32,000 nt of DNA from Chlamydiota bacterium. Its GTDB lineage: Bacteria; Auribacterota; JACPWU01. Position 1 is the stretch's first letter; each line of letters begins with the position of its first letter. Position numbers and translations under genes: made by a program. This document shows, in pieces, positions 1,336 through 32,000 of the stretch. The stretch lies in the NCBI GenBank assembly GCA_016196885.1, contig JACPWU010000050.1, positions 38,794 to 70,793 of the forward strand, given 5' to 3'. Below the pieces are notes generated by a model. That model made no database searches. It saw only the letters and a program-made list of their open reading frames with translations, and was not told the origin of the DNA.

Positions 1336-1346
1336 AATTTAATTTC

Positions 1347-9330: not shown

Positions 9331-9349
9331 TGTTCAAACTCTTTTTAAA

Positions 9350-9426
9350 GCGTACAGCGTTCAGCGGACAGCGGACAGTTTGAAGGAACTTATTTTTCTG
9401 TCCGCTGTACGCTGAACGATGTACGC
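9350..9426. repeat. CGTACAG/CGTTCAG heptamer hairpin (mraZ/rsmH spacer)
   Basis: GCGTACAGCGTTCAGCGGACAGCGGACAG pairs with CTGTCCGCTGTACGCTGAACGATGTACGC around a ~19-nt loop. Confidence 0.75.
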
Positions 9427-9436
9427 CGAACGGTCC

Positions 9437-9886: not shown

Positions 9887-9958
9887 TTGCGGGTCCTTTT
9901 TATCTTATTAAACGCCTTTACCAGCCCCTGTTCCCGCTTCCCCTAAAGAAGAATATAT

Positions 9959-10021
9959 ACCACAATACACCACTTTTCACCACTTTGATATCAGTTTAAG
10001 GCTCTTTTCCCCCACTGTCAA
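9959..10021 (-). promoter_or_regulatory. Putative Pmra sigma-70 promoter with three MraZ-box direct repeats
   Basis: On the minus strand, TTGACA (10021-10016) is followed by a 17-nt spacer and TAAACT (9998-9993). Then GTGGT occurs three times at exact 10-bp spacing (plus-strand ACCAC at 9979-9983, 9969-9973 and 9959-9963). Confidence 0.6.
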
Positions 10022-10028
10022 CGAAAAT

Positions 10029-10122
10029 AGCGTTCAGCATTCAGCGTTCAGCGTTCAGCGTTCAGCGTTCAGAAAAAAACAAGCTCCTTTAAACTGTCGC
10101 TATACGCTGAACGCTGTACGCT
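10029..10122. repeat. Heptamer array hairpin between rnpB and the mraZ promoter
   Basis: AGCGTTC/AGCATTC occurs 6 times in tandem at 10029-10072. The complementary arm CTGTCGC TATACGC TGAACGC TGTACGC lies at 10094-10122. Confidence 0.8.
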
Positions 10123-10168
10123 CTATTTTATTGGGGTATTTTTCAGCTAGATTGAGTATATTATTAAT

Positions 10169-10561
10169 GAAGGGAGAGCCGGATGATCGCTCCGACGTAA
10201 CGTCGGAGAGGAAAGTCCGAACTCCACAGGGTGAAGTGACTTCTCGTAGAAGTCGGTCGAGCGCTTTTTAAATAAAGTTCAAGACCAGGGAAAGTGCCAC
10301 AGAGACAATACTACTTCGATGCAAATCGAAGGAAAGGTGAAAAGAGAAGGGATGTTCGAAAGAGCTACTCTTCTCTCCGATGAGTACAAGCTCTATCGGA
10401 GTGGAAAACCCCACTTGGAGCGAGATCAAATAAAAGACCGTGAGGTACCCGCCTCCCGTTGACTGAATCGACAGGTCTTGGGTAAGATCGCATAAGAGAA
10501 ATGATCATCACGGGCCGTCTAAAAACGGCCTGACAGAATTCGGCTTACAGGCTCTTCCTTC
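10169..10561 (+). ncRNA. rnpB: RNase P RNA, bacterial type A
   Basis: GAGAGGAAAGTCCGAAC (CR-I / P4 5' strand), ACAGAATTCGGCTTACAG (CR-V / P4 3' strand) and AGGGAAAGTGCCACAGAGA. The P1 stem GAAGGGAGAGCC pairs with GGCTCTTCCTTC. Confidence 0.85.
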
Positions 10562-10567
10562 ATTTTT

Positions 10568-10858
10568 TCACCCACCCAACCTTCCATCCCTGAAGAATTG
10601 AAGCGTGTGAATGGTAAAAATTGAGATGCCAATGGAAATTCTTAAAAGCCTGAAAAATTGAATTCGAAAGGTATCTTGTTTGGAACGAAGCATGCCCGCC
10701 ACTCCATCACTGACCAAAAGAACTCCAGCCGCAAATGCCCAATAATCCACAACCACAGGCCCAGATTTTGAAAAAAACGTATGCCACGTAGAGAAACAAC
10801 TCAACGCCGCGATTAAAAATGCAAAGGCCAAAAGATATTTCTTTTCGGCAAAGTCCAT
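10568..10858 (-). CDS. Small hypothetical membrane protein (about 3 TM helices)
   Basis: Hydrophobic ORF. ATG 10858 is preceded by GAAGGAG at 7 nt. The track start at 10909 would overlap the upstream gene by 41 nt. Confidence 0.5.
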   Translation of the reverse strand: MDFAEKKYLLAFAFLIAALSCFSTWHTFFSKSGPVVVDYWAFAAGVLLVSDGVAGMLRSKQDTFRIQFFRLLRISIGISIFTIHTLQFFRDGRLGG

Positions 10859-10868
10859 AAGCACTCCT

Positions 10869-11525
10869 TCAAAATTTTTCATTCCATTCAGGGGATAAAT
10901 ATTTTTCATGCAAAAAGGGCAAGGCTTCCAAAGAGCAAATCATAGAATCTGAATCCTGAAAATTCAAATCAAAAACTTTTGAAAAGGCTTGATGAATTTG
11001 ATAAATTAAATCGTTTCTCTCAATCCCATTTTCTAAATGGATAGATCCTTGATGAAGTAAAAATCCCCTTCTTCTGCGCTGAGCCCCTCCTGCTATTTTT
11101 CGAGATTCTACCACAAGATCTCCCTTCACAGGCGTTTGAAAACAAAAATTTCCCTCTTGACTCTTGCCTTCATAAACTTCAGCGGATACGCCTAAGGAAA
11201 CAAACGCATTTTTCAAAACCCCATGAATCCAGCCATAACTCTCTTGGATATTTTTTAAGAAAGGAACCGATTCCAAAGCAAGGACGAGAGAAAAAGTTAA
11301 ATCATCTCCATGGGGAACAATCCCTCCACCCGTCCAGCGACGCACAAAAGGACGATCTAAAGAGAGATCCCCATTTATCTTTTGAAAATAACCAATGGAA
11401 TAACTAAAGGTTTCCCAATCATAAAAACGCAAAGCAGGAATCTCAGCCAGTAAAAGGCCCTCGTCAACAGCCATGTTCCAGGCAGGATCACGGGGAGGGG
11501 TTTCAAAAACAATTAATTTATACAT
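10869..11525 (-). CDS. Lipoate-protein ligase / octanoyltransferase family protein (BPL_LplA_LipB fold)
   Basis: FVRRWTGGGIVPHGDDLTFS and RKIAGGAQRRRRGFLLHQGSI resemble the LplA/LipM catalytic region. It is adjacent to gcvH, whose product is lipoylated. Start moved to ATG 11525 (MYKLIVFE) because the upstream codons are repeat sequence. Confidence 0.7.
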   Translation of the reverse strand: MYKLIVFETPPRDPAWNMAVDEGLLLAEIPALRFYDWETFSYSIGYFQKINGDLSLDRPFVRRWTGGGIVPHGDDLTFSLVLALESVPFLKNIQESYGWIHGVLKNAFVSLGVSAEVYEGKSQEGNFCFQTPVKGDLVVESRKIAGGAQRRRRGFLLHQGSIHLENGIERNDLIYQIHQAFSKVFDLNFQDSDSMICSLEALPFLHEKYLSPEWNEKF

Positions 11526-11528
11526 AAT

Positions 11529-11645
11529 CTCAAATTTCCAATGACCCATTCCCAATGTCAAATGAATGACCCATGACTCAATATCCAATTGGACATTCGA
11601 TCATTGGAAATTAACTTGTCATTGGCAATTGAGAATTGGAAATGA
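11529..11645. repeat. CCAATGA/CCAATTGGACATT heptamer-hairpin repeat (gcvPB/ligase spacer)
   Basis: Shares CCAATGACCCATT, AATGTCAAATGAATG, CAATTGGACATT and TCATTGGAAATT with 8310-8420. Confidence 0.75.
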
Positions 11646-11651
11646 TCAAAG

Positions 11652-13088
11652 TTACCAAACCAGTCTTAATTCTTTGGCCGCCGCAACTTCATCCAATCGC
11701 CGAACAGGTGTTTCGGTTGGAGCTTGATGAAGTTTTTCGGGAGCGTTTTGGGCCTCCCGGGCAATCTGAACCATCAAATCTGCGTAAGCATCTAAGGTCT
11801 CTCGGGTTTCCGTCTCAGTCGGTTCTATCATCATGGCCTCCTCCACAATCAAAGGAAAATAAACGGTCGGAGGGTGCATTCCAAAATCTAAAAGTCTTTT
11901 CGCAATATCAAGTGCACGAACACCATGCTTCACATAAGGCTTGGCCGAGACCACGAATTCATGCATAAAGGGACCTGGGAAAGGAGTTTCGAAAATTTTC
12001 TTCAATTTCGAAAAAAGATAATTGGCATTGAGAACAGCCGCTTGTCCTGTTTTCTCAAGTCCTTCCTTACCTAAAGCCTTGATATACGTATAGGCTCGAA
12101 CCAAAATCCCCACATTGCCGTAAAAAGACCGTACGCGACCTACAGAATCGGGGAGATTTTCATTCAAAAAATATTCTCCCTCTTTTTTTTCAATCACAGG
12201 TGTGGGTAAAAATTTTGCCAAATGCGCTTTCACCCCGACAGGCCCAGCACCGGGACCTCCACCCCCATGGGGGGTCGAGAAGGTTTTATGCAAATTCAAA
12301 TGAACCATGTCAAATCCCATATCTCCGGGCCTGGCCAAACCCAAGAGTGGATTCAAATTTGCTCCATCATAATAAAGGAGCGCCCCTATTTTATGCATGT
12401 CTTTGGCAACGCGAAGAATATCCCTCTCAAAAAGGCCCAGCGTATTAGGATTGGTCAGCATGAGACAAGCCACATCCGGATTCAGAACCTTTTCCAGGGC
12501 CTCGGAATCAATATGGCCCTTGGCATCCGAAGGAACAGAGACCACGGTGAAGCCCGCCAAATGGGCACTGGAAGGATTGGTCCCGTGTGCAGAATCAGGG
12601 ACAATCACCTGGGTTCTCTTTTGGCCCAACGAATCAAAATAGGCCCGCACGATGAGCATGCCTAAAAATTCACCCTGCGCCCCGGCACAGGACTGGAGAC
12701 AAAATCGGTCCATCCCTGAAATCTCAGAGAGGAGTTTTTCCAATTCATAAAGCAAAGACAAAATCCCTTGAGAAAGATGAGCGGGTTGAAGAGGATGCAC
12801 CTTTGCAAACCCTGATAAAGAGGCAGCTACCTCATTCATTTTCGGATTGTATTTCATGGAACAGGAGCCCAGTGGATAAAAATTGGAATCTATCGAAAAA
12901 TTCAAACGCGACAAATGCGTATAATGTCTGACCACCTCGAGTTCACTTAAAGAGGGAAGGCCATTTTCACTTTCCCTTAAAAATTCTTGGGGGATCACTT
13001 GAATACTTTGAAAAGGGCCTGTGTCTTCCCCGGGCAATGAATAGGCACGACGACCTTCCTTACTTAATTCAAAAAGAGTTTTTTCCAT
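11652..13088 (-). CDS. gcvPB: Glycine dehydrogenase (decarboxylating) subunit 2
   Basis: 478 aa with the NLHKTFSTPHGGGGPG pyridoxal-phosphate lysine motif. Overlaps the gcvPA stop by 20 nt. Confidence 0.95.
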   Translation of the reverse strand: MEKTLFELSKEGRRAYSLPGEDTGPFQSIQVIPQEFLRESENGLPSLSELEVVRHYTHLSRLNFSIDSNFYPLGSCSMKYNPKMNEVAASLSGFAKVHPLQPAHLSQGILSLLYELEKLLSEISGMDRFCLQSCAGAQGEFLGMLIVRAYFDSLGQKRTQVIVPDSAHGTNPSSAHLAGFTVVSVPSDAKGHIDSEALEKVLNPDVACLMLTNPNTLGLFERDILRVAKDMHKIGALLYYDGANLNPLLGLARPGDMGFDMVHLNLHKTFSTPHGGGGPGAGPVGVKAHLAKFLPTPVIEKKEGEYFLNENLPDSVGRVRSFYGNVGILVRAYTYIKALGKEGLEKTGQAAVLNANYLFSKLKKIFETPFPGPFMHEFVVSAKPYVKHGVRALDIAKRLLDFGMHPPTVYFPLIVEEAMMIEPTETETRETLDAYADLMVQIAREAQNAPEKLHQAPTETPVRRLDEVAAAKELRLVW

Positions 13089-14445
13089 GTTCTACCGTCT
13101 CGTTAGCCTCTTGGGCCAGCTTTTCCACAAAGTGTTTTATTTTTTGATCGCTCATCATCTCTGTCACACAAACCAAAAGCGCATCATCCAAATCGGGATA
13201 AAAAGGCTTCAGATGAAGCCCAGGAATAATCTTTTTCTTTTGCATTCTGCGAATCAATTCTTCGGGATTCATGGGAACACGAATCACAAATTCGTTGAAG
13301 AAAGGCTCCGGGAAGGCGAGAGAAAATCCAGGAACACGGGTCATCAGATCGGCCAAATCATGGGCCTTTTTGAGATTGAGAAGTGAAACCTTCTTGAAAC
13401 CTTCAGGACCCATCACGCAAAGATAGAGAGCCCCCATCAAGGCATTCAAAGATTGATTGGTGCAAATGTTGGAGGTGGCCTTCTCCCGCCGAATATGCTG
13501 CTCCCGGGCCTGCAAGGTGAGAACAAATCCCCGCCTACCATCGAGATCCTTCGTCATCCCAACCAGACGGCCAGGCATCTTTCTCACAAATTCCTTCCGA
13601 CATGTCATGAATCCAAAAGAGGGCCCACCAAATTGAAGGACATTTCCAAGACTTTGTCCCTCCCCCACACAAATGTCAGCACCCAACTCTCCAGGAGATT
13701 TCAAAACACCGAGCGCGATCGGATAAGCGACCAAAATAAAAAGAGCCCCATAACGCTTGCACAACTTTCCCGCCTCTTCCATTTTTTCAAGGCAGCCCAA
13801 AAAGTTGGGCCATTGCGCAATAAAGGCCGTCGCCCCTTTTTTGAGTTCATCTTCGAGCTTTTCAAAATCCGTTACCCCCCCACGTCTTGGAATTTCAACA
13901 ATCGCCTCAGCGGTTGCTGTTAAATAGGTTTTAAAAACTTCCCGATATTGAGGGTTCACGGTTTCTGAGACGAGAATTCTATCTCCACTCCCCTGAACTC
14001 TCATGGCCATCAGTGCGGCTTCTGCCACGGCTGAAGAGCCATCGTAAAGAGAGGCATTGGAAACATCGAGACCCGTTAAACGGGCCATCATGGTTTGATA
14101 TTCGAAAATCGCCTGAAGCGTCCCTTGACTCGCCTCCGGCTGATAAGGGGTATACGATGTGGAAAATTCTCCCCGAGAAGCCAAGGCATTTACGACGCTC
14201 GGAATAAAATGATGATAAGCCCCTGCACCCAAGAAACTGTCATAGGATTCTACCGTGCCATTGAGATCTGCCTTGGACTTTAAAAGCTGTAAAACTTCAT
14301 ACTCCGAGAGACCTTTTTCAATCTCGTATTGAGCCCTCTTCACATCTTTTGGAACCAACTGACGGGTTAAATCTTCGAAAGAAGAGAAGCCAATCTCTCG
14401 AAGCATTTCATTCCAATCTTGAGGGGTATGAGGAACAAAATCCAT
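13069..14445 (-). CDS. gcvPA: Glycine dehydrogenase (decarboxylating) subunit 1
   Basis: 458 aa with FLGAGAYHHFIPS and YTPYQPEASQG motifs. The start abuts the gcvH stop (TGAATG). Confidence 0.95.
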   Translation of the reverse strand: MDFVPHTPQDWNEMLREIGFSSFEDLTRQLVPKDVKRAQYEIEKGLSEYEVLQLLKSKADLNGTVESYDSFLGAGAYHHFIPSVVNALASRGEFSTSYTPYQPEASQGTLQAIFEYQTMMARLTGLDVSNASLYDGSSAVAEAALMAMRVQGSGDRILVSETVNPQYREVFKTYLTATAEAIVEIPRRGGVTDFEKLEDELKKGATAFIAQWPNFLGCLEKMEEAGKLCKRYGALFILVAYPIALGVLKSPGELGADICVGEGQSLGNVLQFGGPSFGFMTCRKEFVRKMPGRLVGMTKDLDGRRGFVLTLQAREQHIRREKATSNICTNQSLNALMGALYLCVMGPEGFKKVSLLNLKKAHDLADLMTRVPGFSLAFPEPFFNEFVIRVPMNPEELIRRMQKKKIIPGLHLKPFYPDLDDALLVCVTEMMSDQKIKHFVEKLAQEANETVEHGKNSF

Positions 14446-17381: not shown

Positions 17382-17476
17382 AAAAAGCAGGGAATAGGGT
17401 GTAGGGATTAGGGTATAGGGAACAATGTTCTTAATTAAAATCATTATTTCCCTAAACCCTACACCCTATTCCCTGC
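17382..17476 (-). terminator. TAGGGTA-type heptamer hairpin plus T-run downstream of tRNA-Met (putative intrinsic terminator)
   Basis: GCAGGGAATAGGGTGTAGGGATTAGGGTATAGGGAA pairs with TTCCCTAAACCCTACACCCTATTCCCTGC. On the minus strand the hairpin is followed by TTTTT (17386-17382). Confidence 0.5.
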
Positions 17477-17482
17477 ATTTCA

Positions 17483-17555
17483 TGGGCCCACTAGGATTTG
17501 AACCTAGGACCAATGGATTATGAGTCCACTGCTCTAACCGCTGAGCTATGGGCCC
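17483..17555 (-). tRNA. tRNA with anticodon CAT (elongator Met or lysidine-modified Ile2)
   Basis: The minus strand GGGCCCATAGCTCAGCGGTTAGAGCAGTGGACTCATAATCCATTGGTCCTAGGTTCAAATCCTAGTGGGCCCA folds as a cloverleaf. G1-C72 is paired and there is no GGG/CCC anticodon stem, so it is not an initiator. Confidence 0.85.
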
Positions 17556-17650
17556 GAAAAAAGTAGGGCATAGGGTATAGGGCTCAGGGCTTAGGGAAAA
17601 AATAAATAAACAACCTTACCCCAAACCCTACTCCCTACACCCTATGCCCT
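17556..17650 (-). terminator. TAGGGTA-type heptamer hairpin plus T-run downstream of rpoD (putative intrinsic terminator)
   Basis: GTAGGGCATAGGGTATAGGGCTCAGGGCTTAGGG pairs with CCCCAAACCCTACTCCCTACACCCTATGCCCT. On the minus strand it is followed by TTTTTT (17562-17557), immediately before the tRNA 5' end. Confidence 0.5.
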
Positions 17651-21116: not shown

Positions 21117-21146
21117 AGCGTACAGCGTATAGCGTTCAGCGGACAG
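21117..21146. repeat. Single arm of the CGTACAG/CGTTCAG heptamer family (cvpA/dnaG spacer)
   Basis: AGCGTACAGCGTATAGCGTTCAGCGGACAG. No complementary arm is nearby. Confidence 0.6.
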
Positions 21147-25140: not shown

Positions 25141-25170
25141 TTGACTGCGAATCAGATAAAATGATATACT
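25141..25170 (+). promoter_or_regulatory. Putative sigma-70 promoter of the pseudopilin operon
   Basis: TTGACT (25141-25146), 18-nt spacer, TATACT (25165-25170), in the dnaJ-divergent spacer. Confidence 0.45.
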
Positions 25171-25287
25171 TTGAGGGTGAAAGAGGATCCCCTCTGAGAG
25201 GATGGTTTTATGCTGTTTTTTGATGATTCTCTCAATAGCGCCGGGGGGAAGCCGAACCTATTCTTCAGAGGAGGAATAGGTTTTTTT

Positions 25288-25875
25288 ATGGCAAAAAAAT
25301 TGAACTCCAAAAAGTTTTCCTTCCTCGATGGCGAAATGCGTTTTTACAAACGCGGCTTCACCGTGATTGAAATGCTGGTCGTCATTTCTGTCATCGCTAT
25401 TTTGGCAAGCATCATTCTTCCGGCTTTGAACAGCGCCCAAAAAAAAGCCAAAATCACTAAAACTCAAAGTATGATTGATTCCATCACCACAGCCTTCAAA
25501 CAATATCGAACCGACTTTGGAGCCTATCCCTTAGACGATACCATTCCCAATGTTTCAGGAGGATCCCCCACCTCAGCCGAGTGCATTTATTATTATTCGG
25601 CGGCCAGTTTCGTCGCAGGAGAAAATGCGGATGAGATCACAGCTGGACCTTACATGGAATACCGCCAAAAGGATGAAGGGACTTCGACCCAAAGCGCAGA
25701 CATGGATGGGGATGGTGCCAGCGATGATTCAATTTTTCCAGTAGTGGATGCCTGGGGAAATTCGCTCATTTATATTGAGCCCGGAACCCATAATACGAAC
25801 TCTTTCGATATATATTCTTATGGACCCGACGGAGCCGATGACAGTGGAGGCGACGATGACATTGTTAATTGGTGA
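25288..25875 (+). CDS. GspG/PulG-like major pseudopilin
   Basis: Prepilin motif KRG/FTVIEMLVVISVIAILASIILP, then NSAQKKAKITKTQSMIDSI and a C-terminal DAWGNSLIY...YSYGPDGADDSGGDDDIVNW typical of T2SS G proteins. The start is uncertain. ATG 25288 has AGGAGGA at -12, ATG 25210 has GAGAGGA at -8, and ATG 25336 would give the canonical short leader MRFYKRG. Confidence 0.8.
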   Translation: MAKKLNSKKFSFLDGEMRFYKRGFTVIEMLVVISVIAILASIILPALNSAQKKAKITKTQSMIDSITTAFKQYRTDFGAYPLDDTIPNVSGGSPTSAECIYYYSAASFVAGENADEITAGPYMEYRQKDEGTSTQSADMDGDGASDDSIFPVVDAWGNSLIYIEPGTHNTNSFDIYSYGPDGADDSGGDDDIVNW

Positions 25876-26602
25876 CAAAAAGAAAGCGATCAGAAAAAAA
25901 ATAACTCCCCCAAGCCCTAACTCCCCAGGCCCCTCTTTGAAAAAAAGAGGGGGGACCCTCCCTTTCAGTTTAATCCCACAGGGACTAGAAAATCTTGAGG
26001 GGAGTTGGAGGGGTTATGAGAGTGATCTATTTTCTTTTGAAACTTCTAAAAAAAAATCATCCGGGCTAACCCTGATCGAACTTTTGCTCGTCATTTCTAT
26101 CATGGGCCTTCTTGTTTTTTTAGCGCTCCCAACGCTTTCAAAGTTTGGAAGTAACATACGACTCAAAAGTGCATCAGAACAGGTATCCAGTCTCTTTCGG
26201 ATGGCTCGGCTCTTGGCTACCACAAAAAATATCACGACTTCTGTTTTTATTTACACCCGAGAGGCGGAGCTTCCTAATCATATTTTCATTACAGGTGCAG
26301 GAGGACAATTGGAAAAGGTTTGGGTGGCTCCCTCTTTGATTGAAATTCCGGATGTTTCAGGCAACATCGGTCTTCAAACCGCCTCCTTCACTTCTTTCGG
26401 AACCACGAGCGCCATCTCGCTTCATCTTATTCAAAAGGGCACACTCATCAATGGAAATCCTTATGATGCGAGCGGGACATACGGAAGCTTGAGCAAAGCC
26501 GAACGGGTCAAATGTCAAACCGTCACCACAGACAATAACACCGGCCGGGCCAGAGTTTACGCTTATGGGAGGAATGCGCCATGGGCAAGTACGGATCTTT
26601 AA
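25856..26602 (+). CDS. GspH/FimT-like minor pseudopilin with an unusually long (~70 aa) leader
   Basis: SSG/LTLIELLLVISIMGLLVFLALP, then SASEQVSSLFRMARLLA. There is no ATG/GTG/TTG in frame between the repeat and the cleavage motif. ATG 25856 has GGAGG at -5. The track start at 25748 lies deep inside the upstream gene. Confidence 0.65.
   Translation: MTLLIGDKKKAIRKKITPPSPNSPGPSLKKRGGTLPFSLIPQGLENLEGSWRGYESDLFSFETSKKKSSGLTLIELLLVISIMGLLVFLALPTLSKFGSNIRLKSASEQVSSLFRMARLLATTKNITTSVFIYTREAELPNHIFITGAGGQLEKVWVAPSLIEIPDVSGNIGLQTASFTSFGTTSAISLHLIQKGTLINGNPYDASGTYGSLSKAERVKCQTVTTDNNTGRARVYAYGRNAPWASTDL
25902..26016. mobile_element. 115-nt variant of the TAAC...GTTA palindromic element inside the GspH-like leader
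   Basis: The left end TAACTCCCCCAAGCCC and right end GAGGGGAGTTGGAGGGGTTA match the 72-nt element. The interior differs and has a CCCCTCTT-TGAAAAAA-AGAGGGG hairpin. Confidence 0.6.
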
Positions 26603-27114
26603 AAGCAGGGTCATGGATCATGGGTCATGGGTTAACAAAAAAAGAAAGTTTCATGTTTCATGTTTCATGTTTCATGTTACTCACAACTCACGACTCACGA
26701 CTCACGACTAAAAAAGGCTTTACCCTTTTCGAAATCGTCATCGCCTTAGGAATCCTGGCCATTGGTATCTTAGGAATTCTGGCGCTTTTTCCTGTGGGGC
26801 TGGATGCTCAAAAAAGGGCGATGGATTATGGCAACATGGCCAATTTGGCAGAATGGAAAATGGCTGACATTTATTATCGAAGCCATCTCTCAGGATTTGA
26901 TAACAGTTTGACCGCGGCTCTAGATTATCCAACCAGTGGACCGGATCCTGCGCCTTTCACACAAAATTCAAAATATTTATGGCATTATTCGGTTTCTCAA
27001 CCTTTTGTGAGCACCCTTCCTGATTTTTACCGCGTGGATTTAGAAATTTATTCGGTCGAAGATACGTCAAACTCCATCGAAAAGGTGGTGAATTATTTTG
27101 AAAAACCAAACTAA
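26581..27114 (+). CDS. GspI/PilV-like minor pseudopilin
   Basis: KKG/FTLFEIVIALGILAIGILGILALFPVGL. ATG 26581 is preceded by GGGAGGA at 8 nt. Internal in-frame ATGs at 26653 and 26674 lie inside a heptamer array. Confidence 0.7.
   Translation: MGKYGSLKAGSWIMGHGLTKKESFMFHVSCFMLLTTHDSRLTTKKGFTLFEIVIALGILAIGILGILALFPVGLDAQKRAMDYGNMANLAEWKMADIYYRSHLSGFDNSLTAALDYPTSGPDPAPFTQNSKYLWHYSVSQPFVSTLPDFYRVDLEIYSVEDTSNSIEKVVNYFEKPN
26608..26710. repeat. Three consecutive heptamer arrays inside the GspI-like leader
   Basis: GGGTCAT GGATCAT GGGTCAT, then GTTTCAT x4 perfect (26649-26676), then GTTACTC ACAACTC ACGACTC ACGACTC ACGACTA in the same 7-nt register. Confidence 0.85.
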
Positions 27115-27913
27115 AATAACTGTCGTGCGTCGTGGGCCATCTATCATCCATCATCCATCATCTACTCATGGCTTTTCCATGATCGAACTTCTCGCCGCTA
27201 TGTCTGTTTTTATCATCATGGCTTTTGCCCTGTATGTCGTTTTCGATCGCGTTAATCTCGTGTGGAAACATGGAGAGTACAAGGCAGATCAATATCAGAA
27301 TGCCCGAAATGTTTTGGACATGATGGCTCGAGAATTAACTTCCGCTGTGATTGCTGTCGGAGGACCTAATGCCTTTTCAAACAATGTTTATGGCCCTGCC
27401 TATTTATGGAGTGTTGATGGCCAGGGAGGAAGTGATTACGACCAAGATCAAATCTTTTTCATTTTTGCCAGGGACAACGCACTTCGTGAAGTAGGTTACT
27501 ACATCAACGACCAAACCACAGGTGTGGGAAACACAACGGCCGCAGATGATGTTTTGATGCGGGCCTACACCAGTGATACAAACACCGATTTTGACATCAC
27601 CTCGACTGGCACTTCTTTTGGTTCTTACGACGACACAGGTTTTAAAATCACGGATCTCAACTTTAATTTTATTTATCAGAACGGTGGCAATTATACCCGC
27701 ACCGATGTCTGGGACAGTCGAATGGATTATACCAGCGCTTCAAGCACTTCTACGACCGTTGATGATGGAAAATTGCCTGATTTTATCGAGATTTCGATTC
27801 GCGTCGTAGACCAAGAAATTTTGGAAAAAGATGGGATCTCTCCGCCTCAAAAAGATCGCAAGGAATTTAAAATCATGGTCCCGATGAATCAGAGGAGTTT
27901 TAGAAATGAATAG
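27098..27913 (+). CDS. GspJ/PulJ-like minor pseudopilin
   Basis: HG/FSMIELLAAMSVFIIMAFALYVVF, then QYQNARNVLDMMARELTSA. TTG start at 27098 with AAGGTGG upstream. Overlaps the previous stop by 17 nt. Confidence 0.7.
   Translation: MKNQTKITVVRRGPSIIHHPSSTHGFSMIELLAAMSVFIIMAFALYVVFDRVNLVWKHGEYKADQYQNARNVLDMMARELTSAVIAVGGPNAFSNNVYGPAYLWSVDGQGGSDYDQDQIFFIFARDNALREVGYYINDQTTGVGNTTAADDVLMRAYTSDTNTDFDITSTGTSFGSYDDTGFKITDLNFNFIYQNGGNYTRTDVWDSRMDYTSASSTSTTVDDGKLPDFIEISIRVVDQEILEKDGISPPQKDRKEFKIMVPMNQRSFRNE
27120..27170. repeat. Heptamer array inside the GspJ-like leader
   Basis: CTGTCGT GCGTCGT GGGCCAT CTATCAT CCATCAT CCATCAT CTACTCA, translated as TVVRRGPSIIHHPSSTH. Confidence 0.7.
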
Positions 27914-30911
27914 AATCAATACTCAAAATGAATTAACTCCCCCAACCCCTCTTAACCTAAGAGGGGAGAACCTCTCCCCTTATTTAAGGGGAGTTGGAGG
28001 GGTTACATCTTTTCAAACAGGCGCCGCCCTCATCTTAGCTCTCGGCATCCTCGCTCTCATCACGGTGCTCGCCATTTCTTTCGCGACGCTCATGCGCTTT
28101 GAAGAAAAGAGTGCGCGGCAATCGCTTTATCTCATTGAAGCACGGCAAATGGCGGCCGCGGGACTCCAATACGCGATTGCCATTTTGGAAAAGGATTTAA
28201 CGGAGGATGAGGGCGGAACCACTTCCACCTCGTTAGGCGGTCCGTCGCTGTATGATTCCCTCGATGAAGAATGGGCAACGCTTTTTACGGGGAGTGACAC
28301 TGATTTAGATGGGGACGGCAACAACGATTCCAAATGGATTTACATTCATGAAGATGCTGACGGGACGGGGCCTGTGATTGGACGATATGCAGTTTTGATT
28401 CAAGACGAGGCAGGCAAAGTAAACTTGAATGTGGCTGGGAATGGCTCTCAAAACGAGGGATGGTCCCCTTATGAACTCGACATGTCGGCCCTCCCTGACA
28501 TTGGCTCCACAAAAGCCGATGCCATTCTGGATTATCGCAGGGGAACAGATATTGTGAATGGGGCAGATGCCTCTGAACTTCCTCTTGAGGGAGATGACAA
28601 TGACAATAACATTTCTTTAAGCGCAGATGGGATTGACAACAATGCCACTGCGGGGGCTGACGAAATCAACGAAGGGGCCAATGATCCAACCGAGTTTGAC
28701 CCTGAGATCCCTTATGAGGATGACCGCCCCTTTGCGTCATTGGAGGAACTTTCAAAAGTGAATGGCATTGGCTCGGATACCATTAACAACATCAGAGATG
28801 AGGCAACCGTCAATAGTCTTGACACAAATCAATATTGGAATGGCTCTTCCTGGCTCAGAAAAATCAATTTAAACCATCTTCTTTCTACATCCCAACTTTA
28901 CAGTCTGACTCTCACCACCACGAATGAAAAATATCGCCTTTCGGCGAACATGATAGACTACGCGGATCGAGATATTTATCCGACTTTCACCACGACGACG
29001 GTGAGTGCACCTGACGCAAGCAACTCCTACATGGGCGTGGAAGGCCTGCAAATCAATGAGATCATGAATAATCCTTCTTCCACCTCTATCGCCCGCACAG
29101 AGGCCCAAAGCACCTTGTCAGGTCAGGGGGCGTGGAATCAACAGAGCGGCTATGACGAGGGCAATAGCACAGATGATATAGGTCAATGGAGCTGGCCCTG
29201 GGACAATGGCCCTTATTGGATTTCGGTAGACGAAACCAATGGTTCCAATATCACGATTGATGGTCAGGCGATCAGCGATCCTTCCAGTTTCACACGCGTG
29301 ATTATTTCTGGAGAAGCGATTGATCTTTCCATCACCGATGCCCAAGAGTCCACTCCCCCCCAACAGTTGGCGACCTTCACACAGATCAACATTATGAGTG
29401 GAAAATATATCGAGATCATTAACATCAGCCAAAGAGCGATCACGATTGATTGCACGGGAAGCGATGCCTGGAAACTGGCCCTGGGAGGCACGGTCAATTT
29501 TCCGACGCTCAATCGAGATGGTTTACCAGGAACCGTAAGCGGAGCAACTTATTCTCTTTCTTTAGACGCGACAGGATCAACTGCGAGTGACATCACCCTC
29601 TCAGGTCTTCAATCCAGTACCAGCCCCCCAACCTATGATTATCTCATCATCGCAGACAGCGCTCACGCCCTGGATGAACTCTACGGCGGTGACGGAGACG
29701 GAGCCTGGAGTGGTTCTGGATCAGAACCGGGTCATGTGATTACGAATGGAGACTTGGCAAATGAATTAGCTTCTTCAGGAGTGGATTTGGCTCTGGTTAA
29801 TTCTAACGATGAAGTGATCGCTTATGTTCCCGCAAGTGCCACGAATTATCACATTGCGGCCTACGGAGGCCCCAGTACGGCTGGACAAAGTATGTCACGA
29901 GTTTCTGCGGTGGATGAAACAGGCAGTTGGAACAGTTGGACCTATTCTCCAGGTACCGACAATGACAACGCGAACAACGATATCACTTCTTCAGGTGCTC
30001 GCTATTGGTCCATCAAAGACCGCCCTTACTCAACCATCGGAGAATTGAGCGATGTCTTTCTTGGAACATCCCATAACGGAACCTACAATATCGAAAGCAG
30101 CAGTGCCAGCAGCTTCTTCGACAAAATCACCATCGCAGCCAAAAGATTAGAAGCTGAAGACGCCGACAGCATTCTCTGGTCGAGTTGGGAATCTGCGAGT
30201 GACAATGACGGCACCACCCGTTACATCGCAGGAAGCAACACAGCCAGCGCCACCTGGACTTGGACATTTGATATCACAGATAGCAGTGATATCACAAATC
30301 CCTTCAGGCTTCGCGAAAATACAGGCTTTGACGTTCTGGTTTATAGCCAATTCGCAAGGGATTTCCAATCTCCGAGTGGTGAAGACCGCTTTGTGAGGCC
30401 AAACCACAGCGTCGCCGTTGACTCCGAGACTGTCACCAGCAATCGCATCAGTATCCCCATCATAGGAAACGGAAGCGACACTCCCAAACTGGATTATATT
30501 GTCCTAACCCCAGAGCCCTATACTTATGGACGAATCAACATCAACACGGCTTCTCAAGATGCACTCATGAGTTTACCGGGGATCGCGTCTTCACTATCGA
30601 GCAACATTATTTCTTATCGCGAAACCGATCCCTTCAATCAAATTCAGGAAATCACGAGTGCTTCAAGTGTCGGAGAATCTACTTTCGAACCCATTTCCAA
30701 TCTCATCACGGTCCGAAGCGATGTGTATCGCATCATCATACGTTCCGAGCGCATCATGGACATTGACGGCGACGGGATTGAAAACGATCCCAGTGATTCA
30801 TCCGTTTCTACGGCCAGTCTTGACACCATCGTAGACCGCAATCCGACTCTGCGATTTCCGGGAACCTCCAACCGCTATCGGATTGAGTTTCAGAAATACA
30901 GATATGAATAG
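27906..30911 (+). CDS. Giant (1001 aa) GspK-like minor pseudopilin with large inserted modules
   Basis: GAGGAG lies 9 nt upstream of ATG 27906. It has an N-terminal hydrophobic segment GAALILALGILALITVLAISFA. GspK-like hallmarks are GRYAVLIQDEAGKVNLNVAG and the C-terminal GRININTASQDALMSLPGIASSLSSNIISYRE...VRSDVYRIIIRSE. About 550 aa of insert lies between them. Confidence 0.75.
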   Translation: MNRINTQNELTPPTPLNLRGENLSPYLRGVGGVTSFQTGAALILALGILALITVLAISFATLMRFEEKSARQSLYLIEARQMAAAGLQYAIAILEKDLTEDEGGTTSTSLGGPSLYDSLDEEWATLFTGSDTDLDGDGNNDSKWIYIHEDADGTGPVIGRYAVLIQDEAGKVNLNVAGNGSQNEGWSPYELDMSALPDIGSTKADAILDYRRGTDIVNGADASELPLEGDDNDNNISLSADGIDNNATAGADEINEGANDPTEFDPEIPYEDDRPFASLEELSKVNGIGSDTINNIRDEATVNSLDTNQYWNGSSWLRKINLNHLLSTSQLYSLTLTTTNEKYRLSANMIDYADRDIYPTFTTTTVSAPDASNSYMGVEGLQINEIMNNPSSTSIARTEAQSTLSGQGAWNQQSGYDEGNSTDDIGQWSWPWDNGPYWISVDETNGSNITIDGQAISDPSSFTRVIISGEAIDLSITDAQESTPPQQLATFTQINIMSGKYIEIINISQRAITIDCTGSDAWKLALGGTVNFPTLNRDGLPGTVSGATYSLSLDATGSTASDITLSGLQSSTSPPTYDYLIIADSAHALDELYGGDGDGAWSGSGSEPGHVITNGDLANELASSGVDLALVNSNDEVIAYVPASATNYHIAAYGGPSTAGQSMSRVSAVDETGSWNSWTYSPGTDNDNANNDITSSGARYWSIKDRPYSTIGELSDVFLGTSHNGTYNIESSSASSFFDKITIAAKRLEAEDADSILWSSWESASDNDGTTRYIAGSNTASATWTWTFDITDSSDITNPFRLRENTGFDVLVYSQFARDFQSPSGEDRFVRPNHSVAVDSETVTSNRISIPIIGNGSDTPKLDYIVLTPEPYTYGRININTASQDALMSLPGIASSLSSNIISYRETDPFNQIQEITSASSVGESTFEPISNLITVRSDVYRIIIRSERIMDIDGDGIENDPSDSSVSTASLDTIVDRNPTLRFPGTSNRYRIEFQKYRYE
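27934..28005. mobile_element. 72-nt palindromic element, copy 2, in frame in the GspK-like N-terminus
   Basis: TAACTCCCCCAACCCCTCTTAACCTAAGAGGGGAGAACCTCTCCCCTTATTTAAGGGGAGTTGGAGGGGTTA. It is translated as LTPPTPLNLRGENLSPYLRGVGGV, in the same phase as in murD. Confidence 0.8.
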
Positions 30912-30965: not shown

Positions 30966-32000
30966 CTATATTTCCGCATCGGACAATATTTCATCTTTAC
31001 TCAATGCCTTTCGATAAATTCTCATCTCATCCAGGATTCCATAAAACGCATACGTGGTCGAAGTCCCCCCGTTGCCGAGATAAAGGGAAAGAGGGGTCAC
31101 ATCCAATTCTTTTGATTGCGACTTGCTCGCAGCAAGTGTGCCATTCATATATAAGCTCATCGTCCCCGTTTTGGAATCATACACACCCGCCACATGAGAC
31201 CAGACGTTTCCTTTCATAGAGGCGCTACAAGTAATCCATGAACCTCCCTTATGAGTGGTATCTGTAAAGAAGGACACATTGCCTTTATAAATATAGATCC
31301 CCCAAGTCCCTCCACTCCTTTGCAGGATATACTGTTGGTTCTTTGCAGCCATATTCGTAGGGTAAACCCAGGCTTCAACGGTCAGGGCGTCTTCAGCATC
31401 CAACGTTGCAGAATCAGGTACACAGACATAACCCGATCCGTTAAACGAAAGCCCATTTGCGCTGTATCCCGCTACCGATGTCACACCACTCAATTTTCCA
31501 TTATTCTCACAGTGAGATGGGTCCGTCGCTGTCCCGTCATCAAAATTGTAATGCAACACCTCATCAGGGATTCCTTTCTCCATATCACCTTGAATCATCT
31601 CTTGGCTCAAGGCCATATTGTAGATTCTAAGCTCGTCTATTCGGCCATTGTATGCATAGGTCGGACCAGTTCCGTAGGAACCGACATAAAGATTATCAAG
31701 GGTCGAGCCCAAATGGCCCTTCTGGATTTTAGAACTTTTCAAGGTGCCATCCACATAAAGAACCATGACCCCAGCATTTTTATCATAGGTACCTGCAACA
31801 TGGGTCCAGCGATTGGCTTGAATCGAACTTGATAAAACGAGACGGCTGCCCCCATCGTCTTTGGTATCCGTGTAGAAGTAGAGCTTGCTGCTGGCCATAT
31901 AAAATCCCCAGGTCTCGCTTGATTTCTGCATAAGATATTGACGGGTGCTTGAACTGACACTGGATGGATTAATCCATGCCTCCAGGGTGACTGCGCTTGT
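30966..32000 (-). CDS. Multi-LamG (Laminin_G_3 / concanavalin-A-like lectin) repeat protein; N-terminus beyond the right edge
   Basis: Two full ~175-aa repeats plus part of a third. Each has the pattern LHYNFDDG..., ALTVEAWVYP / AVTLEAWINP, W(S/T)HVAG(V/T)YD, LY(M/V)(N/D)GTL and D(E)(M/L)RIY(R/N)(K/M)ALS. I checked that the frame stays open from 31931 to 32000. Confidence 0.75.
   Translation of the reverse strand, partial: TSAVTLEAWINPSSVSSSTRQYLMQKSSETWGFYMASSKLYFYTDTKDDGGSRLVLSSSIQANRWTHVAGTYDKNAGVMVLYVDGTLKSSKIQKGHLGSTLDNLYVGSYGTGPTYAYNGRIDELRIYNMALSQEMIQGDMEKGIPDEVLHYNFDDGTATDPSHCENNGKLSGVTSVAGYSANGLSFNGSGYVCVPDSATLDAEDALTVEAWVYPTNMAAKNQQYILQRSGGTWGIYIYKGNVSFFTDTTHKGGSWITCSASMKGNVWSHVAGVYDSKTGTMSLYMNGTLAASKSQSKELDVTPLSLYLGNGGTSTTYAFYGILDEMRIYRKALSKDEILSDAEI

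What the first reader, a model, noticed from the sequence alone, without database searches (positions are those of the whole stretch)
25141..30911. Orphan GspG-H-I-J-K-like pseudopilin operon with no ATPase, platform, secretin or prepilin peptidase nearby
Five co-directional genes with overlapping stops and starts (overlaps of 20, 22, 17 and 8 nt) encode proteins with class III (prepilin) signal motifs in canonical T2SS order. They are a G-like major subunit, followed by H-, I-, J- and K-like minor subunits. The locus is flanked by dnaJ (divergent) and a LamG-repeat gene (convergent), so the fibre-tip module is uncoupled from any assembly machinery in this window. Combined with the giant K subunit, this looks like a specialised surface fibre or adhesion module rather than a classical secretion pseudopilus. 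It is the only accessory system in the window, and its function cannot be read from known families.
Basis: partly seen in the sequence, partly recalled or inferred. Interest (0 to 1): 0.7.

Follow-up and report, generated by a model that had tools for sequence, protein, structure and literature searches.

The report
Pilus subunit operon with giant tip protein
This is the filament-subunit operon of a type IV pilus / type II secretion-like machine from an uncultured PVC-group bacterium: one major pilin, four tip pilins, the last a 1001-residue protein with sugar-binding-like modules. It is an interesting variant, not a new kind of system, because related genomes encode the same cassette next to ordinary pilus motor genes.

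Summary
Five co-directional genes (G 25288/25336-25875, H 25856-26602, I 26581-27114, J 27098-27913, K 27906-30911) overlap by 20, 22, 17 and 8 nt. G, H, I and J carry G|(F/L)xxxE prepilin motifs; K lacks Glu5, as GspK/PilK proteins do. No pilus or secretion assembly gene lies elsewhere in the window.

The same dnaJ|G-H-I-J-K arrangement recurs in four close relatives, so no machine sits just outside the cassette there. The cassette is not functionally orphan, though. In four Auribacterota/UBP3 genomes the homologous cassette directly follows pilB/gspE-pilT-pilB/gspE-pilC/gspF. In a fifth genome it precedes pilM and a secretin.

I read it as the filament module of a retractile PVC-type type IV filament whose motor genes lie elsewhere in this genome. 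I could not verify that. K models as a GspK scaffold whose alpha-domain carries a ~510-570 residue insert of CBM-like and lamin-tail-like beta-sandwiches. That makes it a modular tip pilin, probably the adhesin, since no PilY1 gene is present.

It is a new variant of a known kind, of modest interest. As a side observation, genome-wide heptamer arrays and a 75-nt hairpin element lie in frame inside the leader-peptide coding regions.

The parts
25141..25170 (+). Sigma-70-like promoter candidate upstream of G (TTGACT, 18 nt, TATACT, extended TG)
   Evidence: This is a consensus match only. The count of such sites in the region is not above the shuffled expectation.
25254..25283 (+). 13-bp hairpin followed by a T-run, immediately before ATG25288. 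Its 3' arm contains the GGAGGA ribosome-binding site.
   Evidence: (I7). A regulatory role (attenuator or RBS sequestration) is inferred, not tested.
25288..25875 (+). G: GspG-type major pilin/pseudopilin. The leader is MAKK...FYKRG|FTVIEM (alternative start ATG25336). The C-terminus carries the GspG-type motif DIYSYGPDGADDSGGDDDIVNW.
   Evidence: Pfam T2SSG 52.4 bits and N_methyl 29.1 bits. TIGR01710 scores 82.0, below the 88.85 cutoff. Best PDB sequence hit is GspG 5wda. It is 64-65% identical to the orthologues in L001, L014 and L015.
25856..26602 (+). H: GspH/FimT-like minor pilin with a 68-residue leader (...KKKSSG|LTLIELL)
   Evidence: N_methyl 24.1 bits. Best NCBIfam hits are Verru_Chthon D and GspH, over the N-terminus only. 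Six of 7 orthologues hit PF12019 GspH. SD motif GGAGG lies upstream.
26581..27114 (+). I: GspI/PilV-like minor pilin with a 46-residue leader (...TTKKG|FTLFEIV)
   Evidence: N_methyl 23.9 bits. Best NCBIfam hits are Verru_Chthon B, PilV and GspI, over the N-terminus only. The globular part matches nothing.
27098..27913 (+). J: GspJ/PilW-like minor pilin with a 25-residue leader (...SSTHG|FSMIELL)
   Evidence: TIGR02532 scores 16.6 against a cutoff of 16.3. Best NCBIfam hits are Verru_Chthon C and GspJ, over the N-terminus only. The globular part matches nothing.
27906..30911 (+). K: 1001-residue GspK/PilK-type tip pilin. Leader residues 1-38, mature N-terminus AALIL (no Glu5), helix alpha1 at residues 39-103.
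   Evidence: NF037980 GspK 69.7 bits (residues 37-302 align to model positions 1-206); T2SSK and HHH_3 also match. AlphaFold model: pLDDT 78.7, pTM 0.77. Top fold hits are XcpX/GspK: 6utu_C, 9a1f_T, 5vtm_X, 3ci0_K.
28548..28694 (+). K residues 215-263: disordered acidic Asp/Asn-rich segment (family consensus DGIDNDGDGxIDE). Possibly binds calcium.
   Evidence: pLDDT below 50. Fourteen acidic and no basic residues. Conserved Asp columns in A1. Calcium binding is inferred from the motif only.
28986..30515 (+). K residues 361-870: beta-rich insert between the two helix-hairpin-helix parts of the GspK alpha-domain. It forms several beta-sandwich modules.
   Evidence: Secondary structure of both models. 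Foldseek hits: CBM86 6sgf, MiXBM 7ehg, CBM6 2cdp, CBM35, and the lamin-tail Ig fold 1ifr. Probabilities 0.9-1.0 but E about 1e-2 and TM about 0.5. More distant homologues carry Pfam LTD PF00932.
30516..30908 (+). K residues 871-1001: second helix-hairpin-helix unit (T2SSK/HHH_3/ComEA-like), then the C-terminal beta-strands that complete the pilin sheet.
   Evidence: HHH_3 70.7 bits and T2SSK 23.6 bits at residues 876-936. TIGR00426 58.4 bits, above the 53.1 cutoff. Strands 940-951, 965-977 and 992-1000 in the model.
25903..26015 (+). Copy of a dispersed ~75-nt palindromic element (this copy carries an internal insert), lying in frame inside the H leader-peptide coding region
   Evidence: (D4, D5).
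27935..28004 (+). Copy of the same 75-nt palindromic element, lying in frame inside the K leader-peptide coding region. Predicted RNA hairpin of -41 kcal/mol.
   Evidence: z = -4.45. A third copy lies in non-coding DNA at 466-535 on the minus strand.
26608..26709 (+). Three adjacent heptamer tandem arrays (GGGTCAT x3.6, GTTTCAT x4.4, ACTCACG x4.4) inside the I leader-peptide coding region
   Evidence: The sibling L014 I leader lacks them.
27138..27162 (+). Heptamer tandem array (CATCCAT x3.6) inside the J leader-peptide coding region

Best explanation
The locus is the filament-subunit operon of a PVC-type type IV filament machine. That machine is a hybrid between a type IVa pilus and a type II secretion system.

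G is the polymerising GspG-type major subunit. H, I, J and K form the initiation/tip complex that primes assembly and caps the fibre. K lacks Glu5, so it is the apical subunit.

K is a modular pilin. It keeps the GspK scaffold: helix alpha1, the pilin beta-sheet, a helix-hairpin-helix alpha-domain, and a C-terminal beta-strand supplied in cis. About 510-570 residues of CBM-like and lamin-tail-like beta-sandwich modules are inserted into the alpha-domain. The cassette has no PilY1/PilC-type adhesin gene, so K most likely supplies the adhesive function itself, perhaps by binding glycans.

The prepilin peptidase, extension ATPase, PilT, platform, PilM-type alignment proteins and secretin are expected to be encoded elsewhere in this genome.

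Shown here: gene structure, motifs, the K fold, conserved synteny, and linkage of homologous cassettes to motor genes in other genomes. Inferred: tip location, adhesion, retraction, and the presence of the machine in this genome.
For: Gene structure and motifs:
- Prepilin motifs and family hits are as given.
- Translationally coupled starts with SD motifs are conserved in L014.

Conservation:
- All five ORFs are intact and conserved across at least five genomes: G 64-65% identical, H 51-55%, I 57-69%, J about 55%, K 47-51%.
- K alone has more than 100 invariant residues in the alignment. This implies purifying selection, and therefore a working assembly system.

Linkage to motor genes in relatives:
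- L005 and L004 read T2SSE+MshEN ATPase, PilT-family ATPase (TIGR01420 454 bits, above the 319 cutoff), a second T2SSE ATPase, T2SSF platform, then G-G-H-I-J-K. L009 and L010 have the same ORF pattern.
- L003 reads cassette, then PilM (TIGR01175 161.7 bits, above the 133 cutoff; best match the Amuc_1101 family), then an AMIN/TPR secretin.

K structure:
- The model is confident (pLDDT 78.7, pTM 0.77).
- GspK/XcpX are the top fold matches. The insert matches CBM6/35/86, MiXBM and LTD folds.

Literature:
- PilK/GspK homologues of systems lacking PilY1 carry large insertions and donate the C-terminal beta-strand in cis (PMC13533445).
- Modular pilins with grafted lectin modules bind glycans (PMC9934059).
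- Auribacterota MAGs are reported to encode type IV pili (PMC9324843).
Against: - No assembly gene was found for this genome. The rest of the 70.8-kb contig and the other contigs could not be read.
- Searches with a relative's PilM and PilC returned no hit attributable to this MAG or its sibling among the best 120. The PilC list was saturated and the MAG may be incomplete, so this result is inconclusive.
- None of the five proteins reaches the NCBIfam equivalog cutoffs for GspG, H, I, J or K.
- The I and J globular domains match nothing known.
- The CBM/LTD fold matches are weak: E about 1e-2, TM about 0.5, 12-17% identity. They indicate a fold class, not a ligand.
- The 46- and 68-residue leaders of I and H are far longer than typical prepilin leaders, and their processing is untested.
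Confidence: 0.6

Rival explanations
1. It is a classical type II secretion pseudopilus. G-H-I-J-K would form a short periplasmic piston that pushes folded exoproteins through a secretin. Candidates include the many LamG/ConA-like proteins of such genomes.
For: - G is GspG-type, with the C-terminal GspG motif.
- K has the GspK alpha-domain, and GspK/XcpX are the top fold hits.
- In relatives the adjacent ATPase and platform pass the GspE and GspF equivalog cutoffs narrowly: TIGR02533 633 and 646.6 bits against 630.25, and TIGR02120 424.2 against 424.
- A LamG-repeat gene lies next to K.
Against: - The relatives' clusters contain a PilT-family retraction ATPase (454 bits, cutoff 319).
- The same ATPases score slightly higher on the PilB model than on GspE (660 and 667 bits, cutoff 675.65).
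- L003 has PilM and an AMIN-domain secretin. No GspC, GspL or GspM was seen.
- A cap of about 100 kDa with three or so beta-sandwich modules fits an exposed adhesin better than a periplasmic piston (inference).
- The LamG neighbour is not conserved. L014 has a transposase there; L001 and L015 have LPS genes.
Confidence: 0.2
2. It is a DNA-uptake (competence) pilus whose tip subunit K binds DNA through its ComEA-like helix-hairpin-helix units.
For: - K passes the ComEA HhH-repeat model TIGR00426 (58.4 bits, cutoff 53.1).
- The family profile matches ComEA structures (8dfk, E 7.5e-11) better than XcpX (1e-4).
- Tip minor pilins are the DNA receptors in several competence pili (own knowledge; PMC13533445 mentions the Thermus and Vibrio competence T4aP).
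Against: - K is strongly acidic (pI 4.1). Both HhH segments are net negative: 3 basic against 10 acidic residues, and 3 against 6.
- HhH units are an intrinsic part of the GspK alpha-domain. T2SSK covers the same residues (877-936) as HHH_3.
- No comEC or other competence gene lies in the window or in the relatives' flanks.
Confidence: 0.07
3. It is a truly orphan or decaying cassette, no longer assembled by any machine.
For: - No assembly gene lies within 25 kb upstream in the window or within 10 kb in four close relatives.
- No PilM or PilC attributable to this MAG was recovered.
- Repeat elements have invaded the leader-coding regions.
Against: - All five ORFs, including 1001 codons of K, are intact with SD motifs and coupled starts. 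They are conserved at 47-69% identity across at least five genomes.
- Every repeat insertion preserves the reading frame.
Confidence: 0.05

Closest known systems
T2SS minor pseudopilin complex GspH-I-J-K with major pseudopilin GspG (E. coli GspIJK, PDB 3CI0; P. aeruginosa XcpVWX, 5VTM/6UTU)
   Same: - Same G-H-I-J-K gene order.
- G has the GspG-type head and C-terminal motif.
- K lacks Glu5 and has a helix-hairpin-helix alpha-domain inside the pilin fold.
- K supplies the C-terminal beta-strand in cis.
- GspK/XcpX are the top fold hits.
   Different: - All five proteins fall below the NCBIfam equivalog cutoffs.
- K is three times longer, with about 510-570 residues of beta-sandwich modules inserted in the alpha-domain.
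- Related clusters carry PilT, PilM and an AMIN secretin rather than GspC, L and M.
- The leaders are 25-68 residues long.
Type IVa pilus minor-pilin operons with a tip adhesin (P. aeruginosa fimU-pilVWXY1E, Neisseria pilHIJK plus PilC, M. xanthus minor pilins plus PilY1; PMC7541494, PMC13533445)
   Same: - An H-I-J-K-type priming/tip complex is encoded apart from the motor genes.
- Related clusters contain PilB, PilT, PilC, PilM and a secretin.
- A large adhesive component is expected at the tip.
   Different: - No separate PilY1/PilC beta-propeller protein is present.
- The bulky module is built into K, which keeps its own C-terminal strand.
- The major subunit is GspG-type, not PilA-type.
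Modular (grafted-domain) pilins and PilK-like proteins with large insertions (S. sanguinis PilB/PilC, PMC9934059; C. crescentus CpaL and the Thermus/Vibrio competence PilK homologues, PMC13533445)
   Same: - The design principle is the same: a pilin moiety plus Ig-like or lectin-like modules displayed at the filament tip.
- The insertion lies between the pilin sheet and the donor C-terminal strand.
   Different: - No sequence relationship was found.
- Here the modules sit inside a GspK alpha-domain, flanked by its two HhH units.
- No ligand is known.
Verru_Chthon cassette proteins A-D (NCBIfam TIGR02600, TIGR02598, TIGR02599, TIGR02596)
   Same: - They are the best or near-best NCBIfam hits for H (D), I (B) and J (C), and a hit for K (A).
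- The concept is the same: a PVC-group cassette of three prepilin-type proteins plus one protein of more than 1000 residues.
   Different: - Only the N-terminal 40-65 residues align.
- Scores are far below the cutoffs: 35 against 70, 30 against 51, 36 against 256, and 35 against 332.
- That cassette is itself uncharacterised, and no paper in the library mentions it.
Akkermansia Amuc_1098-1102 type IV pilus-like cluster (NCBIfam Amuc_1101 and Amuc_1098 families)
   Same: The PilM and secretin next to the homologous cassette in L003 have these families as their best matches. This places the machine among PVC-type pili.
   Different: - Scores are well below the cutoffs (296 against 650, and 262 against 750).
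- These genes are not in the window.

Membership tests
Type IV pilin / pseudopilin superfamily (class III signal peptide) | N-terminal leader ending in Gly, then a hydrophobic helix with Glu at +5 (Pfam N_methyl PF07963 / TIGR02532) | tested here: met
   - G scores 29.1 bits, H 24.1 and I 23.9, all above the Pfam cutoff of 21.2.
- J scores 20.3 on Pfam (below cutoff) but 16.6 on TIGR02532 against a cutoff of 16.3.
- K has G|AALIL without Glu5, as expected for the K subunit.
Type IV pilin / pseudopilin superfamily (class III signal peptide) | Cleavage and N-methylation by a prepilin peptidase encoded in the same genome | not testable with these tools
   The rest of the genome could not be read. 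The 46- and 68-residue leaders of I and H are unusually long.
T2SS major pseudopilin GspG (TIGR01710 / PF08334) | Score above the curated cutoff; GspG head with the C-terminal SxGxDG...NW motif | tested here: inconclusive
   Pfam T2SSG scores 52.4 bits against a cutoff of 21, which is met. TIGR01710 scores 82.0 against 88.85, which is not met. The match comes in two stretches around an insertion of about 65 residues. The C-terminal motif is present.
T2SS minor pseudopilins GspH, GspI, GspJ (TIGR01708, TIGR01707, TIGR01711) | Score above the equivalog cutoff over the globular domain | tested here: not met
   - H scores 27.5 against 80, I 16.9 against 44.35, and J 19.6 against 64.85. All matches cover the N-terminus only.
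- Six of 7 H orthologues hit Pfam GspH PF12019 (best E 6.5e-7), but the window's H does not.
- I and J have no globular match.
T2SS minor pseudopilin GspK (NF037980 / PF03934) | Score above the cutoff; no Glu5; alpha-domain inserted in the pilin fold; C-terminal strand in cis | tested here: inconclusive
   - NF037980 scores 69.7 against 130, and PF03934 scores 23.6 against 24.2. Both fall below their cutoffs.
- Glu5 is absent.
- XcpX/GspK are the top fold hits at probability 1.0, but over only about 125 columns.
- Terminal strand 992-1000 is present in the model.
Classical T2SS (Gsp) system | Co-occurrence with GspC, D, E, F, L, M and absence of a retraction ATPase | tested here: not met
   None of these genes is in the window. 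Homologous cassettes in relatives sit beside PilT (TIGR01420 454 bits, above 319) and PilM. No GspC, L or M was seen.
Type IVa pilus system | PilB, PilT, PilC, PilM-N-O-P and a PilQ secretin, plus a minor-pilin set | tested here: inconclusive
   The feature is met only in relatives. PilB-like, PilT and PilC lie next to the cassette in L004, L005, L009 and L010. PilM and a secretin lie next to it in L003. The PilB model scores 660-667 bits, just under its 675.65 cutoff. This genome could not be checked.
Type IVa pilus system | A separate PilY1/PilC tip adhesin gene within the minor-pilin operon | tested here: not met
   No such gene lies in the cassette or its flanks.
Verru_Chthon cassette (TIGR02596, TIGR02598, TIGR02599, TIGR02600) | Scores above the subfamily cutoffs for all four proteins | tested here: not met
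   Scores are 35.3 against 70, 30.3 against 51.4, 36.3 against 256.5, and 34.6 against 332.3. All matches cover the N-terminus only.
Modular pilins (pilin moiety plus grafted functional module) | A class III signal peptide protein whose extra length forms independent folded domains | tested here: met
   The K model shows a pilin helix and sheet plus a beta-sandwich insert at residues 361-870, with pLDDT mostly 75-93. The insert has CBM and LTD fold hits.
ComEA-type DNA-binding (HhH)2 domain (TIGR00426) | Score above the cutoff, and a basic DNA-binding surface | tested here: inconclusive
   The score of 58.4 exceeds the 53.1 cutoff. However, the segment is net acidic (3 K+R against 6 D+E) and the protein's pI is 4.1. 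DNA binding was not tested.

The most novel reading that the evidence does not exclude
In this clade the apical K subunit may have taken over the PilY1 adhesin role. Glycan-binding-type beta-sandwich modules would be built into the GspK alpha-domain, giving a retractile, self-capped adhesive pilus that an uncultured PVC/Auribacterota-like bacterium uses to grip polysaccharide particles or other cells.

In addition, expression of individual tip subunits may be phase-variable. The mechanism would be slippage of the 7-nt tandem arrays, together with a 75-nt hairpin element, which have colonised the dispensable leader-peptide coding regions.
Probability: 0.2. Interest if true: 0.5.

Novelty: new variant of a known kind. 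Interest (0 to 1): 0.3.

Why it matters
- It adds a concrete, well-modelled example to the emerging rule that type IV filaments lacking a PilY1-type adhesin build the adhesin into their K subunit. Here the modules sit inside the GspK alpha-domain, a position not described for CpaL or the competence-pilus K homologues.
- Such giant K proteins are common in metagenomes. The search found 348 clusters at 50% identity with E <= 1e-10, most of them 650-1700 residues long. None has been studied.
- It corrects the 'orphan' reading. Comparative context links the cassette to PilB/PilT/PilC/PilM/secretin machines.
- The in-frame repeats within prepilin leaders suggest that leader peptides tolerate insertions. 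They offer a testable route to phase variation.

Tried and rejected
- Fetching the source contig by exact protein look-up failed for K, DnaJ and P0001. K is identical to MBI1884500.1/MBI3267037.1, on a 70.8-kb contig of a MAG labelled 'Chlamydiae/Chlamydiota bacterium'.
- I tried to find the machine in the same genome by searching with a relative's PilM (accessions) and PilC. No hit carried an MBI accession, a Chlamydiae label or a matching contig length. The PilC list saturated at 54-60% identity. The result is inconclusive.
- An Rfam search of the operon's leader regions found only sub-threshold miRNA-like hits to the palindromic element. A riboswitch such as c-di-GMP is rejected.
- Profile searches of H, I and J against PDB sequences found only the shared N-terminal helix.
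- A functional link to the LamG neighbour is rejected because that neighbour is not conserved in relatives.
- Membership of the Verru_Chthon cassette families is rejected on score.
- A literature search for 'Verru_Chthon' found nothing.

Full report
**1. What is there**

The window is ordinary chromosome. It carries mraY, murF, murE, ftsI, rsmH, an lplA-like gene, gcvPB, gcvPA, gcvT, rpoD, dnaG, cvpA, an AAA_14/DUF4143 ATPase, rsmE and dnaJ, all on the minus strand. The last five gene names are backed by the syntenic, Pfam-annotated genes of L014.

Five plus-strand ORFs follow, from about 25.2 to 30.9 kb. Beyond them lies a convergent LamG-repeat gene that runs off the end of the window. None of the other large ORFs is a type II/IV secretion ATPase, platform, secretin or prepilin peptidase.

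**2. Gene starts and overlaps**

Shine-Dalgarno-like motifs lie 7-12 nt upstream of ATG25856, ATG26581, TTG27098 and ATG27906.

In the sibling locus L014 a gene caller chose homologous overlapping starts, with overlaps of 20, 22, 20 and 8 nt. The first residues of H and I are recognisably conserved: MTLLIG against MTLPIG, and MGKYGSLKAGSW against MVKYEFIKETARSW.

G most likely starts at ATG25288, which has GGAGGA upstream, or else at ATG25336.

**3. Identity of the proteins**

- **Prepilin motifs.** G, H, I and J carry G|(F/L)xxxE motifs. N_methyl and TIGR02532 scores are at or above their cutoffs, except that J is marginal on Pfam.
- **G** is GspG-type. It scores 52 bits on PF08334 and 82.0 on TIGR01710 (cutoff 88.85). 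Its best PDB sequence matches are GspG, including the C-terminal SxGPDG...NW motif.
- **K** begins G|AALIL, so it lacks Glu5. It matches the GspK model over residues 37-302, and it matches T2SSK and HHH_3 at residues 876-936.
- **H** is GspH-like through its orthologues: 6 of 7 hit PF12019.
- **I and J** can be labelled only by position, size and N-terminal best hits. Their globular parts match nothing in Pfam or among PDB sequences.
- **Verru_Chthon cassette.** The best NCBIfam hits of H, I and J, and one hit of K, are the proteins D, B, C and A of this cassette. Only the N-termini align, and the scores are far below the cutoffs.

**4. Source and relatives**

K is 100% identical to MBI1884500.1/MBI3267037.1, from a MAG labelled 'Chlamydiae/Chlamydiota bacterium', on a 70.8-kb contig. 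The closest species-level relatives in the GTDB set are unnamed MAGs and MAGs labelled Candidatus Auribacterota. The phylum label is therefore doubtful.

Close relatives (K 45-53% identical) keep the same chromosomal position:
- L014 has rpoD-dnaG-cvpA-rsmE-dnaJ on the minus strand, then G-H-I-J-K.
- L001, L015 and L002 have dnaJ, then an extra K paralogue. In L001 and L015 G-H-I-J-K follows; the L002 contig ends inside that K gene.
- None has an assembly gene within 10 kb. The downstream neighbours differ: a transposase in one case, LPS genes in others. The LamG gene is therefore not part of the module.

**5. The cassette is not functionally orphan**

More distant homologous cassettes are informative. 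Their H is 24-28% identical over the full length and their K is 24-37% identical.
- In L005 and L004 the order is a T2SSE+MshEN ATPase, a PilT-family ATPase, a second T2SSE+MshEN ATPase and a T2SSF platform, then G, G, H, I, J, K. L004 has a two-component/sigma-54 regulator pair between platform and pilins. L009 and L010 show the same ORF pattern.
- On NCBIfam the ATPases sit between PilB (660 and 667 bits, cutoff 675.65) and GspE (633 and 646.6 bits, cutoff 630.25). The small ATPase is clearly PilT family (454 bits, cutoff 319). The platform just reaches GspF (424.2 bits, cutoff 424).
- In L003 the cassette is followed by a GH2-like gene, a PilM (best match the Amuc_1101 family) and an AMIN/TPR secretin (best match the Amuc_1098 family).

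Different relatives thus link the cassette to both halves of a retractile, PVC-type type IV filament machine. A published analysis of Auribacterota MAGs also reports type IV pili (PMC9324843).

**6. The giant K**

An AlphaFold model built from 24 homologues is confident: pLDDT 78.7, pTM 0.77. Its layout is:

| Residues | Feature |
|---|---|
| 1-38 | disordered leader |
| 39-103 | long helix alpha1 |
| 142-167 | beta-strands |
| about 200-212 | helical unit |
| 215-263 | disordered Asp/Asn-rich stretch |
| 279-296 | first helix-hairpin-helix (HhH) unit |
| 361-870 | beta-rich block |
| 884-930 | second helix-hairpin-helix unit |
| 940-1000 | three long strands ending at the C-terminus |

Foldseek places XcpX/GspK first (6utu_C, 9a1f_T, 5vtm_X, 3ci0_K; probability about 1). 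It matches the insert to the lamin-tail Ig fold and to CBM6/35/36/86 and MiXBM beta-sandwiches. This holds for the whole model and for a separate model of residues 355-875. These insert matches are weak (E about 1e-2, TM about 0.5) and indicate a fold class only. More distant homologues carry Pfam LTD.

An exhaustive search found 348 clusters at 50% identity with E <= 1e-10. Most are 650-1700 residues long and share only the N-terminal 37-400 region and the HhH unit. Only about a dozen align over the full length. Giant K proteins with variable middles are therefore common, but this architecture is rare.

**7. Mechanism**

Recent work shows that the K subunit nucleates the I-J-K tip complex through a C-terminal beta-strand. 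GspK supplies this strand in cis; PilC/PilY1 supplies it in trans. In systems lacking a tip adhesin, the K homologue carries a large insertion; CpaL and the Thermus and Vibrio competence pili are examples (PMC13533445). Modular pilins with grafted Ig and lectin modules bind glycans at the pilus tip (PMC9934059).

The K here fits that pattern. The cassette has no PilY1 gene, K keeps its own terminal strand, and it has a large beta-sandwich insert. I therefore propose a self-capped adhesive pilus, probably retractile. The fold, the motifs and the gene linkage are shown. Tip location, adhesion and retraction are inferred.

**8. Rivals**

- **Classical T2SS piston.** The GspG and GspK features, and the borderline GspE and GspF scores in relatives, favour it. 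PilT, PilM, the AMIN secretin, the absence of GspC/L/M and the bulk of K argue against it.
- **DNA-uptake pilus.** K passes the ComEA HhH model (58.4 bits, cutoff 53.1), and the family profile matches ComEA structures better than XcpX. Against this, K has pI 4.1 and both HhH segments are net acidic.
- **Decay.** Intact, conserved, translationally coupled ORFs in at least five genomes contradict it.

**9. What could not be settled**

I could not read the rest of the source contig or genome. Searches with a relative's PilM and PilC did not return any protein attributable to this MAG or its sibling. The listing limit of 120, the saturation by conserved PilC sequences and possible MAG incompleteness make this uninformative. 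The presence of the assembly machine in this genome is therefore an expectation, not a result.

**10. Side observations**

- **Heptamer arrays.** The window is peppered with 7-nt tandem arrays in almost every intergenic spacer. They often occur as complementary pairs, and they flank the RNase P RNA and a tRNA gene. The sibling L014 has them; the distant L005 does not.
- **Arrays inside the operon.** In the pilin operon, which has no spacers, the arrays lie in frame inside the leader-coding parts of I and J.
- **Palindromic element.** A 75-nt element forms an RNA hairpin of -41 kcal/mol (z = -4.5). One copy lies in non-coding DNA at 466-535, and two lie in frame in the H and K leaders.
- **Leader lengths.** The repeat insertions account for the unusually long H and I leaders: H 68 residues, I 46, against 12 and 23 in L014. 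J has 25 and K 38. Leader peptides seem to be a tolerated landing site. Slippage of 7-nt units would frameshift the gene, which suggests phase variation. This is untested.

**11. Verdict**

The locus is a new variant of a known kind of system: a type IV filament subunit cassette with a modular GspK-type tip pilin. It is of modest interest.

Noticed in passing
window 1563-23845 (many sites, e.g. 9349-9432, 10029-10122, 17389-17468, 17564-17644, 21117-21146); L014 72-1115: Tandem arrays of 7-nt units (3-6 copies) occupy nearly every intergenic spacer, often as complementary pairs. Examples are AGCGTAC with its complement and AGCGTTC with its complement. The arrays flank the RNase P RNA gene and a tRNA gene. 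The sibling genome L014 has them; the distant Auribacterota locus L005 does not. They resemble cyanobacterial STRR heptamer repeats (own knowledge).
   Followed up: partly
window 26608-26709 and 27138-27162: Heptamer arrays lie in frame inside the leader-peptide coding regions of minor pilins I and J (GGGTCAT, GTTTCAT and ACTCACG in I; CATCCAT in J). A change of one unit would shift the reading frame, so phase variation is possible but untested. The L014 orthologues lack these arrays.
   Followed up: partly
window 466-535 (-), 25903-26015 (+), 27935-28004 (+); L014 about 10030-10075: A dispersed ~75-nt palindromic element (TTAACTCCCCCAACCCCTCTTAAC...GGGGAGTTGGAGGGGTTA) folds into an RNA hairpin of about -41 kcal/mol (z about -4). 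One copy is non-coding. Two copies lie in frame in the H and K leader-coding regions. The L014 K leader keeps only the 5' half. No Rfam family matches.
   Followed up: partly
window 25254-25283: A 13-bp hairpin followed by a T-run lies directly before the likely G start, ATG25288. Its 3' arm contains the GGAGGA ribosome-binding site. It could be an attenuator or an RBS-sequestering leader for the operon.
   Followed up: no
window 10171-10563 (+) and 17483-17555 (-): A bacterial class A RNase P RNA (188.5 bits) and a tRNA gene explain two of the ORF-free stretches. Both are bracketed by heptamer arrays.
   Followed up: yes
window 1-1686: About 1.7 kb downstream of mraY has no ORF longer than 70 residues, where murD would be expected in a dcw cluster. 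The stretch holds a copy of the 75-nt element and several heptamer arrays. It may be degraded or may hold unrecognised features.
   Followed up: no
L001 4308-7301, L015 673-3708, L002 7304-9226: Three close relatives carry a second giant K paralogue (about 1000 residues, 46-51% identical to the window's K) between dnaJ and G. The window and L014 lack it.
   Followed up: partly
source MAG label (MBI1884500.1 / MBI3267037.1): NCBI labels the source MAG Chlamydiae/Chlamydiota. The nearest cassette relatives are unnamed MAGs and MAGs labelled Candidatus Auribacterota, including one with the same dnaJ-K arrangement (L002). The phylum assignment looks doubtful.
   Followed up: partly
L006 and L007 (K-like genes of about 1370 residues at 9962-14074 and 9752-13858): In these loci a giant K-like protein has no G-H-I-J prepilin genes upstream. 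It is flanked by very large ORFs (about 1900 residues) and by LamG-like sequences. This is a different genomic context for the K scaffold.
   Followed up: no
window 30966-32000 (-): The convergent LamG-repeat gene (Laminin_G_3, 179 bits, two repeats within the window) continues beyond the window end. This neighbour is not conserved in relatives, so it is probably unrelated to the pilin cassette.
   Followed up: partly
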